Of a stretch of 64,000 nucleotides of DNA, positions 1-2,920 are shown piece by piece. Positions within the stretch are counted from its first letter, which is position 1. The number at the start of each line of letters is the position of its first letter. The position numbers and the translations under genes are program-made. Origin of the DNA: Candidatus Omnitrophota bacterium (GTDB lineage Bacteria; Omnitrophota; Gorgyraeia; Gygaellales; Profunditerraquicolaceae); assembly GCA_028712375.1 (NCBI GenBank), contig JAQTQG010000002.1:8032-72031 (forward strand). Direction: 5' to 3'. The notes beneath the pieces are model-generated. The model searched no databases and had not been told where the DNA came from. It worked only from the letters and a program-made list of their open reading frames with translations.

Positions 1-467
1 CCAGTAAACGATAACAGATTACCCTCACTATCTTCAAGTATGCCTATTTTTTGATGCGCGATTCCATTAGGTAAGACTGCGATTTTTATTTTAAGTGCAC
101 CTTTTTTTATCATCCAACAAAGCATTGAAACATGGTTTCTTTTTAGCTCATCTTCGATATTACTTATTTCCTCAAGTACACGATCTTCATTTTCTTTCAA
201 TGCGTTCTCAATCGACTCTTTATCTTCGCGAGAAAAAACTACACTAGTGACTAAATACATTTTACCGCCATTATTTATAAACGCGGCTATACCTTTAGCT
301 GCAACAGCCAGGGTAGTAGAAGAAAAAAAACCAGCTATTCTTTTATAAGTTTTAGATATTGATAGGGCTGGAATGTAAAAATCTTGTAGCAGATCATCCT
401 CATCTGACCAGTAAGATGATTTAAAACTTATATCTTTTAACGTCGCTTTATTATTAAGTCCACACAT
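1..467 (-). CDS. PLD/HKD-family nuclease (phospholipase D-like endonuclease), N-terminal part; gene runs off the left window edge
   Basis: Reverse-strand translation from ATG at 467-465 gives MCGLNNKATLKDISFKSSYWSDEDDLLQDFYIPALSISKTYKRIAGFFSS...GIAHQKIGILEDSEGN. The H-x-K...D...G-x-N spacing is PLD/HKD-like. It starts 7 nt downstream of the dcm stop on the same strand. No stop is reached before position 1. Confidence 0.5.
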   Translation of the reverse strand, partial: MCGLNNKATLKDISFKSSYWSDEDDLLQDFYIPALSISKTYKRIAGFFSSTTLAVAAKGIAAFINNGGKMYLVTSVVFSREDKESIENALKENEDRVLEEISNIEDELKRNHVSMLCWMIKKGALKIKIAVLPNGIAHQKIGILEDSEGNLLSFT

Positions 468-473
468 TAATTA

Positions 474-1628
474 TTAAAGCTTAATACTTAACTCTTTCGA
501 TAATCTATTATATATACAATCATCAAAAATTATTTCTGTTCCTGTTTTATGTTTAATCCTGCGGATTAGAGTCCTCCCATTCTTTATTAGCCTCACTTTA
601 TTTTGATGCCTCTCTAAATCAAGCATAATCTTGCCTGCAATGATATTAGCAAAATCAACTGGCACAGCGTTGCCTACCATCTTATAGCCATCACTAACAT
701 CAGTATATTTAAAAATGAAACTATCCGGAAACGTTTGAATCCTGGCGCATTCTCTAACTGAAAGACGCCTGTATAAATGCTCCTTACCTTTTACAAATTC
801 TCTTTTATTTTGTTCGATAAATTCCATCTTTGGTGCCTGCGGGTGAATTGGAGCATGCCTACCCCCTGCCTGTATTGTAAAAGATTGTTCATCCCAACTC
901 CTTACCCTGTTCCTCGACATATAAATTGTTGAGAAGTTCCCAATCATGTATTCATGATTAGGAACTTTAAGGCTATCCCCATTTGTTTTGTTATATTTCA
1001 ATGCTGGCTTAGGATCTTTCAAATCACCAATCGCGTCTCTTAAAGTTAAAAGCTTTTCAGAGCCTTCTGGAAATTCAAAAGTCATCCCCATTTTCTTATG
1101 ATATCCCACTATAATGACTCTTTCTCTGTCTTGTGGGACATTATAATTTTTAGCATTCAACAACTTATATGCGATATTGTAGCCAGCTTCGGCAAACTGA
1201 CTAAGAATTTTTTCAAAAGCTTCTTTATGAATACTTGCTAAAATACCAGACACATTTTCTGCTAAGAAAAACAACGGCCTTTTGTCTTTTAACAATCTTA
1301 TATATTCAAAAAATAACTGCCCTCTATGATCTTTTATCCCCCGGCATGCTCCAGCCTCGCTCCAGCTTTGACAAGGTGGGCCGCCAATAATGCCATCGCA
1401 TTTAGGTATTTCGTTAGAAGGGATATCAACTATAGATCTTTTATCAAGGAATACCTTAGGATGATTGCCTTCAAAAGTATAAGTTTCCCATATTGTCTTA
1501 TCAAATTCATTGGCCCAAATAATTTCAAATCCAGCTTTTTCAAAGCCAAGGTCTAACCCACCACAACCCGTGAAAAGCGATACTACTTTAAAGCCACTTT
1601 CCTTATTTTTTCGATTTTCTTTAAGCAT
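474..1628 (-). CDS. dcm: DNA (cytosine-5)-methyltransferase (Dcm family)
   Basis: C5-MTase motif I FTGCGGLDLGF, motif IV GGPPCQSWS and an ENV motif. 384 aa. Confidence 0.9.
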   Translation of the reverse strand: MLKENRKNKESGFKVVSLFTGCGGLDLGFEKAGFEIIWANEFDKTIWETYTFEGNHPKVFLDKRSIVDIPSNEIPKCDGIIGGPPCQSWSEAGACRGIKDHRGQLFFEYIRLLKDKRPLFFLAENVSGILASIHKEAFEKILSQFAEAGYNIAYKLLNAKNYNVPQDRERVIIVGYHKKMGMTFEFPEGSEKLLTLRDAIGDLKDPKPALKYNKTNGDSLKVPNHEYMIGNFSTIYMSRNRVRSWDEQSFTIQAGGRHAPIHPQAPKMEFIEQNKREFVKGKEHLYRRLSVRECARIQTFPDSFIFKYTDVSDGYKMVGNAVPVDFANIIAGKIMLDLERHQNKVRLIKNGRTLIRRIKHKTGTEIIFDDCIYNRLSKELSIKL

Positions 1629-2008
1629 ATTGGTAAATCCTTAATTATTTGGTACTGCCAAAACCTGATAACCCGCCAGCCACATTTCTTTAGTTCTTTA
1701 TTATTTAACTTATCCCTAGCAATATTCCTCTCAATCTTTGGTATCCAATAATTCCTATTGGCCTTCAGTTTCTTCTTTTTTTCACGCCATTTATAACCAT
1801 GCCAAAACTCACCATCAACAAATATTGCTATCTTCTTATCTATAAGCGCGGCATCTGGCTTGCCCGGTAAACTACTATAGTAACTTTTAAATCTAATCTT
1901 TTCTTTTCGGAGTGCCTTATATAATAGAATCTCAGGCGTGGTTTTTTCACTTTTGATTTTCCGCATCAAGTTAGACCTTTTTGCGGAAACCTTAAATTCA
2001 TATGCCAT
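1583..2008 (-). CDS. vsr: Very short patch repair endonuclease Vsr
   Basis: The FVDGEFWHG motif and ~140 aa size are typical of Vsr. Its 3' end overlaps the dcm start, the classic vsr-dcm pairing. Confidence 0.85.
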   Translation of the reverse strand: MAYEFKVSAKRSNLMRKIKSEKTTPEILLYKALRKEKIRFKSYYSSLPGKPDAALIDKKIAIFVDGEFWHGYKWREKKKKLKANRNYWIPKIERNIARDKLNNKELKKCGWRVIRFWQYQIIKDLPICLKKIEKIRKVALK

Positions 2009-2119
2009 ATTATAACTCTAAAAATATTAAGTTAAAGTTATAGTTTGGCATTCCTTTACCTCGCCTGCATGAGGTATGCTTGACTCCCCTACCAATATAG
2101 ACGTAAAAAATGCCAAAAT

Positions 2120-2920
2120 CTAACTTGAATTCTTTCCTTCTTTTTCAATCATCAAAAAATATATGGTTTTTCTTTCACACGATGAAACATCCTGTCTCCA
2201 TCTCTCCCCAAAATCGTTCATATCCGGTATTCCGGAAACATTATTGAATACCCAGGGAGCATTTTCAGCCTTTTTTATTAGCCCTTTTGCCCTTGAGTGC
2301 TCAGAATCACTGGCTTGCCCATACCATACTCGCCTAATCGCAATTTTCAAATTATTTATGTATTTACTAAAATACTCCTCAAAAGTAAAAACCTCTATGT
2401 TATCTACAGAAATATTATGTAGCGGGGCTTCTAAAATAAATTCTGCTTGATGAGAAGAAAACCCAACATTTGGGCTGCCTTGCACCATAAGAAACCTAAC
2501 TAATGCCTTAAAGTTATCTTCATTAAAAAAATCCTGCCAGGGCCTGTTTCTTCTTTCAAGATTACCTTCATGAAACTCTGTAACTTCTGTATCTAAACGC
2601 TGCAACAACGCTGCCGGATTACTAAATCCGAGAAGAGAGAAAACTTCCAGCATGTTCGCTCTTTGCAATCTATTAAATGAAAAACTTGATCCAGATTGTT
2701 TCAGCGAAACACCGTGCCCATTAACATATATATCTGCTTTCTTGCTTGGATCATTAACTGATAAGTAATTGTCAGCTTCTCTTATTGTATTAATCTCTGT
2801 ATATTTCCGCTGAGATAAATCCGGGGCACCTACTGAATTAATAACCCCTAAGTGCTGCAAAGACACAGCTCCTTTTTGTGCAACCAAATATTTTGCTATT
2901 TCCTTCTCATTCCCAGGCAT
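2120..2920 (-). CDS. Hypothetical protein, first gene of the X-vsr-dcm-PLD nuclease operon; possible restriction/defense component
   Basis: 266-aa ORF with no family I can recognise. It is co-oriented with, and immediately upstream of, vsr. Confidence 0.55.
   Translation of the reverse strand: MPGNEKEIAKYLVAQKGAVSLQHLGVINSVGAPDLSQRKYTEINTIREADNYLSVNDPSKKADIYVNGHGVSLKQSGSSFSFNRLQRANMLEVFSLLGFSNPAALLQRLDTEVTEFHEGNLERRNRPWQDFFNEDNFKALVRFLMVQGSPNVGFSSHQAEFILEAPLHNISVDNIEVFTFEEYFSKYINNLKIAIRRVWYGQASDSEHSRAKGLIKKAENAPWVFNNVSGIPDMNDFGERWRQDVSSCERKTIYFLMIEKEGKNSS

What the first reader, a model, noticed from the sequence alone, without database searches (positions are those of the whole stretch)
1..2920. 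Four-gene operon: unknown 266-aa protein, Vsr, Dcm and a PLD/HKD nuclease, a possible unconventional restriction/defense module
On the minus strand, four genes are packed with overlaps or minimal gaps. Orf266 (2120-2920) comes first, then vsr overlapping dcm, then a PLD-family (HxK...D) nuclease starting 7 nt after the dcm stop. Classical Dcm-Vsr pairs usually stand alone or accompany PD-(D/E)xK REases. Here the endonuclease candidate is HKD-type (as in BfiI/NgoAVII). An additional 266-aa protein with no motifs I can recognise leads the operon. Either protein could be the real effector, and the combination is not a textbook R-M arrangement.
Basis: partly seen in the sequence, partly recalled or inferred. 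Interest (0 to 1): 0.65.

Follow-up and report, generated by a model that had tools for sequence, protein, structure and literature searches.

The report
GGCC restriction-modification plus PbeABCD on prophage
The four genes are real, but they are the visible part of an eight-gene prophage defence cassette: an ordinary cytosine-methylase restriction system, whose cutting enzyme belongs to an uncatalogued family, directly followed by the already described PbeABCD anti-virus module.

Summary
An identical public contig (L001) shows the full minus-strand order: MazG-like, Orf266, Vsr, Dcm, PbeA, PbeB, PbeC, PbeD. Phage genes follow, including a terminase. The cassette lies next to a large serine recombinase and tRNA-His.

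The "PLD nuclease" is the N-terminus of PbeA, an HKD nuclease fused to an SF2 helicase (PADLOC 1e-226). It is not a BfiI/NgoAVII-type restriction enzyme.

Dcm is an M.HaeIII-like methylase (PDB 1dct, 1.4e-122, full length), so its predicted target is GGCC, not CCWGG or CCGG.

In 34 of 42 other genomic loci an Orf266 homolog lies next to a Dcm of 48-81% identity. A controller protein or Vsr is often present, and Pbe never is. GGCC is strongly depleted around these loci (O/E 0.33).

So this is a conventional R-V-M system with a new enzyme family, joined to PbeABCD. The closest Pbe relatives also lie beside methylases, a pairing already noted in the literature. Whether Pbe reads the m5C mark is open.

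The parts
1..467 (-). N-terminal 155 codons of pbeA (full protein 694 aa, HKD nuclease + SF2 helicase). The gene runs off the left edge of the window.
   Evidence: PADLOC PbeA 1.3e-47 for the fragment and 1.3e-226 for the full protein from L001. TIGR04095 dnd_restrict_1 6.5e-131. HQK...GSEN at residues 138-160 and DEVH at 388.
474..1628 (-). dcm: C5-cytosine DNA methyltransferase, M.HaeIII-like, predicted target GGCC
   Evidence: PF00145 1.2e-94. PDB 1dct M.HaeIII 1.4e-122 over residues 15-334, including the target-recognition region. GGCC depletion around homologous loci.
1583..2008 (-). vsr: very-short-patch T:G mismatch endonuclease; overlaps the dcm start by 46 nt
   Evidence: TIGR00632 3.1e-35, 121 bits, above the 97.85 cutoff. 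PF03852 2.9e-20.
2120..2920 (-). orf266: predicted type IIP restriction endonuclease of an uncatalogued family (HinP1I/MspI/HhaI-like fold), cognate to dcm
3011..3358 (-). MazG-like nucleotide pyrophosphohydrolase gene, first gene of the minus-strand block; its role in the cassette is uncertain
   Evidence: PF12643 1.6e-20. phrog_3301 pyrophosphatase 3e-19. Homologs near the same R-M in L018, L023 and L025.
3537..4007 (+). DUF2924 protein, companion of the recombinase
   Evidence: PF11149 5e-38. The same pair is present in the syntenic prophage L052.
4004..5614 (+). Large serine recombinase (prophage integrase)
   Evidence: Resolvase, Recombinase and Zn_ribbon_recom domains. XisF/CcrB-like.
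5915..5991 (-). tRNA-His at the edge of the element (probable integration site; inferred)
   Evidence: ARAGORN. GC content rises from about 0.35 to about 0.43 across this point.

Best explanation
The window's left end is the lysogeny-proximal defence region of a prophage in a Candidatus Omnitrophota genome. It encodes two known kinds of defence, apparently in one minus-strand transcription unit.

(1) A type II restriction-modification system with repair accessory. Dcm, an M.HaeIII-like enzyme, methylates the inner C of GGCC on resident DNA. Orf266 is a small, probably monomeric, PD-(D/E)xK-fold endonuclease of the HinP1I/MspI/HhaI structural clade, with catalytic motif D63-X8-S72-x-K74. It cuts unmethylated GGCC on incoming DNA. 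Vsr nicks T:G mismatches left by deamination of 5-methylcytosine, so the sites are not lost by mutation.

(2) PbeABCD, also called the CxC-ABC ATPase/DndE system. PbeC (ABC ATPase with a C323-x-C325 hook) and PbeD (DndE-like) scan DNA. PbeA (HKD nuclease + SF2 helicase) is the effector. PbeB (56 aa) is a regulator.

Shown here: gene identities, fold, conserved motif, gene linkage and site depletion. Inferred: GGCC cleavage by Orf266, co-transcription, and the activity of Pbe. Open: whether Pbe uses the GGm5CC mark written by the adjacent Dcm as its self signal in place of phosphorothioate. I put this at about 40%.
For: PbeA/B/C/D. PADLOC PbeA 1e-226 and PbeC 7e-98. dnd_restrict_1 6.5e-131 and dnd_assoc_4 6e-5. 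CxC at 323-325 and Walker A at 32-39 in PbeC. The role assignments follow PMC10853773 and PMC6459918.

Dcm. M.HaeIII 1.4e-122, with an alignment that is continuous through the variable region.

Context. Of 42 genomic loci with an Orf266 homolog, 34 have a Dcm homolog (48-81% identity) adjacent, in tandem or convergent orientation, and 11 also have Vsr. None has PbeA or PbeC. Across all the locus sets, an HTH_3 controller protein lies immediately upstream in at least 15 loci.

Site depletion. GGCC is the most depleted of the 16 palindromic tetramers around these loci. Pooled O/E is 0.33, falling to 0.00-0.11 in the most depleted loci, most of them cyanobacterial.

Prophage. Terminase phrog_38 2e-97. 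The syntenic element L052 carries a DpnII-type R-M at the same position, upstream of its PbeABCD.

Block mobility. The block C-Orf266-Vsr-Dcm-PbeABCD recurs at 61-82% identity in L047 and L048, in different surroundings.
Against: No biochemical data exist for any member of the Orf266 family. Serine replaces the usual acidic residue in the (D/E)xK triad. From memory, Cfr10I/NgoMIV have SxK, and MspI and HinP1I have NxK and QxK. I could not read residue-level structural superpositions.

GGCC is only mildly depleted in the window itself (O/E 0.81, sixth lowest of the 16 palindromic tetramers). The strong depletion in cyanobacterial loci could be due to other GGCC systems in those genomes.

PbeD scores below NCBIfam's cutoff (23 vs 74 bits).

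The promoter and terminator scans do not differ from shuffled sequence, so the single-operon claim rests on spacing alone.

In the one studied Pbe system, activity required phosphorothioate modification (PMC6459918). No dnd gene is seen on L001, and a tblastn of one DndC-like query found none in the window (a limited test). This Pbe could therefore be inert.
Confidence: 0.75

Rival explanations
1. There is one integrated m5C-based Pbe system. Dcm writes the self mark and PbeABCD is the only restriction effector. Orf266 is not an autonomous nuclease but a modification-discriminating accessory. It could be the 'MTaX1' domain that Krishnan/Aravind report next to cytosine methylases in CxC-ABC systems and in some R-M systems.
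For: [quoted passage not shown] That description fits Orf266's distribution. The seven-gene block recurs three times (window, L047, L048). Only 6 nt separate dcm from pbeA. All seven other Pbe loci examined have a modification gene beside Pbe: an MTase in L047, L048, L050, L052, L053 and L054, and a DndC-like gene in L055. Serine occupies the acidic position of the triad.
Against: Of the 42 Orf266 loci, 34 carry only Dcm (with or without Vsr or a controller protein), and none carries a Pbe gene. In these loci Orf266 is the only candidate partner for the methylase. An upstream controller protein is the classic device for delaying a toxic REase. The fold matches active REases, and the catalytic-position motif is the best-conserved feature of the family. 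GGCC depletion in host DNA implies real cleavage pressure.
Confidence: 0.12
2. The two modules are merely stacked in a prophage defence hotspot and are functionally independent. Pbe here either works without any adjacent mark or is silent because no phosphorothioate system is present.
For: The R-M unit is autonomous elsewhere. In the syntenic prophage L052 a completely different R-M system (Dam/DpnII/second MTase) occupies the same slot, as expected for cassette shuffling in a hotspot. Xiong et al. found 320 of 553 pbeAC pairs without dnd genes and low co-evolution with the modification genes.
Against: In all eight Pbe loci examined, a DNA-modification gene lies next to the Pbe block, and in five of them it lies directly upstream of pbeA. 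L053 and L054 have an MTase with no recognisable REase beside Pbe, which suggests the MTase serves Pbe. The sample is small and was not chosen at random.
Confidence: 0.35
3. This is the first reader's reading: a four-gene unconventional R-M system in which the HKD (PLD) protein is the cognate restriction endonuclease of Dcm, as in BfiI or NgoAVII.
For: An HKD-type motif is present, and the gene is translationally close to dcm.
Against: The full protein is 694 aa with an SF2 helicase. It matches PbeA end to end (1e-226) and is followed by PbeB, PbeC and PbeD. Dcm already has a REase-fold partner, Orf266.
Confidence: 0.03

Closest known systems
HaeIII-type (GGCC) type II R-M systems with an associated Vsr gene
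   Same: An M.HaeIII-like C5 methylase over its full length. A small adjacent endonuclease, a Vsr repair nuclease, a controller protein in relatives, and GGCC depletion in host DNA.
   Different: The endonuclease matches no Pfam, NCBIfam, PADLOC or PHROGs model at the thresholds used, and these libraries include restriction-enzyme families. From memory, the known GGCC enzymes HaeIII and NgoPII have Pfam models of their own. BspRI and BsuRI were not compared directly. Orf266 represents a small uncatalogued family of 107 clusters at 50% identity among 1.84 billion representatives.
Monomeric type IIP endonucleases HinP1I (GCGC), MspI (CCGG), HhaI (GCGC)
   Same: Best and only strong structural matches, with about 150-160 residues aligned. 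Similar size (241-262 aa vs 266 aa). Four-base G+C palindromic targets. A catalytic D...xK on beta2/beta3 after an N-terminal helix (PMC7026639).
   Different: 13-17% sequence identity and no sequence-level detection. S72 replaces the E, Q or N of the triad. The predicted target is GGCC. The monomeric state was not tested.
DndCDEA-PbeABCD of Haloterrigena jeotgali (Xiong et al. 2019, PMC6459918), equivalent to the CxC-ABC ATPase/DndE systems (Rakesh et al. 2024, PMC10853773)
   Same: The same four genes in the same order. PbeA is HKD + SF2 helicase, PbeB is a small protein, PbeC is an ABC ATPase with a CxC hook, and PbeD is DndE-like.
   Different: No dndCDEA phosphorothioation genes are nearby. 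A complete m5C R-M system sits directly upstream instead. The system is carried on a bacterial prophage. Pairing of Pbe/CxC systems with methylases has been reported only computationally.
BfiI / NgoAVII-type HKD restriction enzymes
   Same: An HKD-superfamily nuclease motif.
   Different: From memory, those enzymes fuse the HKD domain to a DNA-binding domain and lack a helicase. Here the HKD domain is the N-terminus of a 694-aa helicase protein that belongs to PbeA.

Membership tests
Type II restriction-modification system (R + M, with V and C accessories) | A DNA methyltransferase with the catalytic motifs | tested here: met
   PF00145 1.2e-94. GGPPCQSWS and FLAENV motifs are visible in the alignment to M.HaeIII.
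Type II restriction-modification system (R + M, with V and C accessories) | An endonuclease gene stably linked to that methylase across genomes | tested here: met
   34 of 42 Orf266 loci have the Dcm lineage adjacent, in varying orientation.
Type II restriction-modification system (R + M, with V and C accessories) | A nuclease fold and catalytic motif in the R protein | tested here: met
Type II restriction-modification system (R + M, with V and C accessories) | Site-specific cleavage that is blocked by the cognate methylation | not testable with these tools
   Needs enzyme assays.
Type II restriction-modification system (R + M, with V and C accessories) | A controller (C) protein upstream of R (frequent, not obligatory) | tested here: not met
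   Absent in the window, where a MazG-like gene occupies that position. Present directly upstream of the Orf266 homolog in at least 15 related loci.
M.HaeIII-like GGCC specificity | Similarity extending through the target-recognition domain | tested here: met
   412 bits, residues 15-334 vs 3-320 of 1dct. The variable region aligns closely.
M.HaeIII-like GGCC specificity | Depletion of the site in host DNA | tested here: inconclusive
   Pooled O/E is 0.33 in loci with homologs, the lowest of 16 palindromic tetramers. It is only 0.81 in this window, and other GGCC systems in the same hosts are not excluded.
Vsr very-short-patch repair endonuclease | Score above the curated family threshold | tested here: met
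   TIGR00632 121 bits vs cutoff 97.85. PF03852 72 bits vs 27.
PbeABCD / CxC-ABC ATPase-DndE system | PbeA: an HKD nuclease fused to an SF2 helicase | tested here: met
   PADLOC PbeA 1.3e-226 over residues 10-671. HQK...GSEN and DEVH motifs.
PbeABCD / CxC-ABC ATPase-DndE system | PbeC: a DndD-like ABC ATPase with a CxC hook in the coiled coil | tested here: met
   PADLOC PbeC 6.8e-98. C323-I-C325 at mid-length. Walker A GKNGTGKS.
PbeABCD / CxC-ABC ATPase-DndE system | PbeB: a small protein between A and C | tested here: met
   A 56-aa ORF at the expected position, 55-77% identical in L047, L048 and L052. It has no family model.
PbeABCD / CxC-ABC ATPase-DndE system | PbeD: a DndE-like protein after C | tested here: inconclusive
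   TIGR04062 dnd_assoc_4 at 23 bits (cutoff 74), and a weak Pfam DNA_S_mod_dnd_assoc_4 hit. Position and size fit.
PbeABCD / CxC-ABC ATPase-DndE system | An adjacent dndCDEA phosphorothioation module (in the originally defined system) | tested here: not met
   None on the 13.6-kb contig L001, and no DndC-like hit in the 64-kb window. The literature accepts dnd-less Pbe systems: 320 of 553.
BfiI/NgoAVII-type HKD restriction enzyme | A stand-alone HKD nuclease plus DNA-binding domain serving as the REase of the adjacent MTase | tested here: not met
   The protein is a 694-aa PbeA with a helicase, followed by PbeBCD.
MTaX1 domain (Krishnan et al. 2020) | Sequence membership in the MTaX1 alignment | not testable with these tools
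   The defining paper (PMC7544218) is not held, and the term is absent from the held supplement of PMC10853773.

The most novel reading that the evidence does not exclude
In this Pbe clade the phosphorothioate mark has been replaced by base methylation. The adjacent methylase, here an M.HaeIII-like enzyme writing GGm5CC, would serve two effectors at once. One is a classical type II endonuclease (Orf266). The other is PbeABCD, which would read the same mark as 'self'. This would make a prophage-borne, two-tier restriction system sharing one methylase, with Vsr limiting the mutational cost. The slot upstream of Pbe can be refilled with a different complete R-M system (DpnII type in L052), which would imply that Pbe is agnostic to the chemical nature of the mark.
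Probability: 0.35. Interest if true: 0.6.

Novelty: new member of a known kind. Interest (0 to 1): 0.35.

Why it matters
Three modest points.

(1) Orf266 defines a small restriction-endonuclease family that is absent from Pfam, NCBIfam, PADLOC and PHROGs. It has a confident model in the rare monomeric HinP1I/MspI/HhaI clade and a predicted GGCC target. It could be a new HaeIII isoschizomer family and a further case for studying how monomers read palindromes.

(2) The locus is a clean natural example of PbeABCD joined to a methylase rather than to Dnd genes. Two papers raised this pairing from genome statistics, and in the papers I could search it has not been tested experimentally. The three conserved copies and the DpnII-swapped prophage give ready constructs for that test.

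(3) It shows that defence annotation at a window edge can mislead. The apparent "HKD restriction enzyme" is the first 155 residues of a helicase-nuclease from another system.

Tried and rejected
- **Family libraries.** Sequence searches of Orf266 gave nothing in Pfam (single protein, all 34 aligned members and 10 distant relatives), NCBIfam, PADLOC, PHROGs or PDB sequences by phmmer and profile.
- **PDB sequence hit.** The only PDB sequence hit was a sulfurtransferase at E 0.1-0.6. I rejected it as noise.
- **afdb50.** This library was not available.
- **Promoters and terminators.** Counts are no different from shuffled sequence, so the scan does not help define the operon.
- **MTaX1.** The 2020 paper is not held and the term is not in the held supplement.
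- **Viral contigs.** One contig has Orf266 plus Dcm and no Pbe (L056). No close PbeA relative was found in viral contigs.
- **Second modification system.** A search for a DndC-like gene in the window found none. This was a limited tblastn test with one query.
- **HinP1I papers.** The structural papers, wanted for the exact catalytic residues, are not held. Statements about QxK and NxK in HinP1I and MspI, and SxK in Cfr10I/NgoMIV, are from memory.
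Full report
**1. The observation**

- orf266 at 2120-2920
- vsr at 1583-2008
- dcm at 474-1628
- an ORF starting at 467 that runs off the window

vsr overlaps the start of dcm by 46 nt, and six bases separate the dcm stop from the next ATG. Vsr and Dcm score far above their curated thresholds: TIGR00632 at 121 bits vs 97.85, and PF00145 at 1e-94. The truncated ORF contains H138-Q-K140...G157-S-E-N160, an HKD-type motif.

Upstream lie a MazG-like gene (3011-3358, minus strand) and a divergent DUF2924 gene with a large serine recombinase (3537-5614, plus strand). 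tRNA-His follows at 5915-5991. G+C rises from about 0.35 to about 0.43 there.

**2. What lies beyond the window edge**

An exact-sequence look-up of Dcm returned contig JBINOA010003457.1 (L001, 13.6 kb). Its first 5614 bases are identical to the reverse complement of window 1-5614. After dcm it encodes:
- a 694-aa protein: PADLOC PbeA 1.3e-226, TIGR04095 "DNA phosphorothioation system restriction enzyme" 6.5e-131
- a 56-aa protein
- a 638-aa ABC ATPase: PADLOC PbeC 6.8e-98, DndD-like, with Walker A at 32-39 and C323-I-C325 at mid-length
- a 138-aa protein with a weak dnd_assoc_4 match

. This is a complete PbeABCD cassette.

Next come a ParB-fused N6/N4 methylase, a 228-aa protein and a terminase large subunit (phrog_38, 2e-97). 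The element is therefore a prophage, and the defence genes sit between its integrase and its packaging genes.

**3. What is known about Pbe**

Xiong et al. (PMC6459918) showed that DndCDEA-PbeABCD of a haloarchaeon blocks viral DNA replication. The block depends on phosphorothioate modification, and they detected no DNA cleavage. They also reported that 320 of 553 pbeAC pairs lack dnd genes and that 155 of those lie near methylases.

Rakesh et al. (PMC10853773) re-annotated the four proteins:
- PbeA: HKD endoDNase + SF2 helicase
- PbeB: a disordered small protein
- PbeC: a CxC-type ABC ATPase
- PbeD: a DndE cognate

They noted that such systems often carry cytosine methylases plus an "MTaX1" domain gene. 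The paper that defines MTaX1 is not held, so I could not test whether Orf266 is MTaX1.

**4. What Dcm methylates**

Dcm matches M.HaeIII (PDB 1dct) at 1.4e-122 over residues 15-334. The alignment is close throughout the variable target-recognition region. The next match, M.HhaI, is at 1e-34. The predicted target is therefore GGCC.

Site statistics give independent support:
- In the 29 loci of at least 8 kb that carry an Orf266 homolog, GGCC is the most depleted of the 16 palindromic tetramers. Pooled O/E is 0.33, against 0.80 or more for every other tetramer.
- O/E falls to 0.00-0.11 in the most depleted loci, most of them cyanobacterial.
- In the window itself GGCC is only mildly depleted (0.81), as expected for a recently acquired mobile element.
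- CCWGG (1.01) and CCGG (1.17) are not depleted in the window.
- Caveat: other GGCC systems in those hosts could contribute to the depletion.

**5. What Orf266 is**

It has 235 homologs in the 5.8-billion-protein set. All those that carry a name are called "hypothetical protein" and none has a Pfam domain; the named sources include Omnitrophota, Atribacter and cyanobacteria. An exhaustive profile search found only 107 clusters at 50% identity among 1.84 billion representatives.

These are the three structurally related monomeric type IIP enzymes that cut 4-bp G+C palindromes. The next hit scored 4.2. Foldseek also put MspI first, although weakly.

The invariant residues K60-K61-A-D63 and S72-x-K74-Q75 fall just before strand 64-66 and within strand 69-75, after an N-terminal helix. 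HhaI carries SD34-X11-E46-A-K48 at the same topological place (PMC7026639). The KAD-X8-SxK motif is the feature that survives in relatives of 21-25% identity.

**6. Orf266's gene neighbours**

Of 42 genomic loci with an Orf266 homolog:
- 34 have a Dcm of the same lineage (48-81% identity) immediately adjacent, in tandem or convergent orientation.
- 11 also have Vsr.
- None has PbeA or PbeC.

Across all the locus sets, an HTH_3 controller-type protein lies directly upstream of the Orf266 homolog in at least 15 loci. Some copies are orphaned or frameshifted (L009, L029, L038, L039). One 40%-identical copy pairs with a D12-class methylase instead (L031).

This distribution is the signature of a type II restriction enzyme with its cognate methylase. 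Orf266-Vsr-Dcm is therefore a conventional R-V-M unit whose R subunit belongs to an uncatalogued family.

**7. Whether the R-M unit and Pbe are linked**

The two closest PbeA relatives (72-75% identity; L047 and L048) carry the same block: C protein-Orf266-Vsr-Dcm-PbeABCD. All seven genes of the shared block are conserved at 61-82% identity, but the surroundings differ. The composite therefore moves as a unit.

Other Pbe loci look like this:

| Locus | PbeA identity | Modification gene beside Pbe |
|---|---|---|
| L052, a syntenic Omnitrophota prophage (recombinase 53%, ParB-methylase 62%, terminase 43%) | 55% | Dam / DpnII / second methylase, directly upstream, in place of Orf266-Vsr-Dcm |
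| L050 | 59% | N6/N4 methylase plus a 174-aa ORF, upstream |
| L053, L054 | 45-47% | Lone D12 methylase, no recognisable endonuclease |
| L055 | 44% | DndC-like PAPS reductase |

Every Pbe block I examined sits beside a DNA-modification gene. This agrees with the literature's suggestion that Pbe can pair with methylation. The sample is eight loci, and nothing here shows functional dependence.

No intergenic terminator was found, but the promoter and terminator scans are no better than shuffled sequence. Co-transcription is inferred from spacing alone.

**8. Most likely mechanism**

- Dcm methylates GGCC on resident DNA.
- Orf266 cuts unmethylated GGCC on entering DNA, probably as a monomer, one strand at a time, like its structural relatives.
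- Vsr repairs T:G mismatches from m5C deamination.
- PbeC and PbeD scan DNA, and PbeA (helicase-nuclease) acts on foreign DNA under the control of PbeB.
- The prophage thereby protects its host, and itself, from competing phages.

Shown: identities, fold, motif, linkage and site depletion. Inferred: cleavage specificity, operon structure and Pbe activity. Whether Pbe reads the GGm5CC mark is open; I put it at about 0.35-0.4.

**9. Verdict**

Both modules belong to known kinds, and their pairing has been noted computationally. What is new is limited to an uncatalogued REase family with a predicted GGCC specificity, and a well-defined, thrice-conserved R-M-Pbe composite on a prophage that would suit a test of methylation-coupled Pbe. 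Interest is 0.35.

Noticed in passing
window 3011-3358 (-); L025 9646-9990; L018 5795-6121; L023 3064-3390: A MazG-like pyrophosphohydrolase gene precedes orf266 in the window. Homologs (46-62% identity) recur next to or near the same Orf266/Dcm unit in three unrelated loci. A role in clearing 5-methyl-dCTP from the nucleotide pool is conceivable, but that is only my speculation.
   Followed up: partly
L052 4467-20080 (GCA_015233405.1, Omnitrophota): This is a syntenic prophage with the same recombinase/DUF2924, PbeABCD, ParB-methylase and terminase backbone. It carries a LexA-like repressor and a Dam/DpnII/N6_N4-methylase R-M cassette where the window has MazG-Orf266-Vsr-Dcm. It looks like cassette exchange in a fixed slot upstream of Pbe.
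   Followed up: partly
L031 2541-4136: An Orf266 homolog (40% identity) is followed by a D12-class ('RYPGGK') methylase instead of a C5 methylase. This suggests a change of partner, and perhaps of specificity, within the family.
   Followed up: no
L048 3159-5239: PbeA is split into 529-aa and 149-aa ORFs. This is a frameshift, either a pseudogene or an assembly error, in an otherwise intact Orf266-Vsr-Dcm-PbeABCD block.
   Followed up: no
L047 8283-9167: A TIR_2-domain protein and small ORFs lie just downstream of PbeD. This is probably a further defence gene in the same island.
   Followed up: no
L001 10061-11332 (left of the window): A ParB-N-terminal domain is fused to an N6/N4 DNA methylase, 62% identical in the related prophage L052. 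It lies between the Pbe block and the terminase. It appears to be a phage-borne orphan methylase and could itself bear on self-marking.
   Followed up: no
window 14803-15209 (-), 7408-7685 (-), 17005-17087 (+): There is a tmRNA with a 29-residue tag (ANTQVSRLGTFVQPSFAAKPMFVPAFGLN), plus tRNA-Arg, tRNA-Pro and tRNA-Leu genes, in the host part of the window.
   Followed up: no
window 474-610 (-): Dcm carries a basic C-terminal extension of about 45 residues beyond the end of M.HaeIII. The extension is present in L048 (381 aa) but shorter in L047 (354 aa).
   Followed up: no
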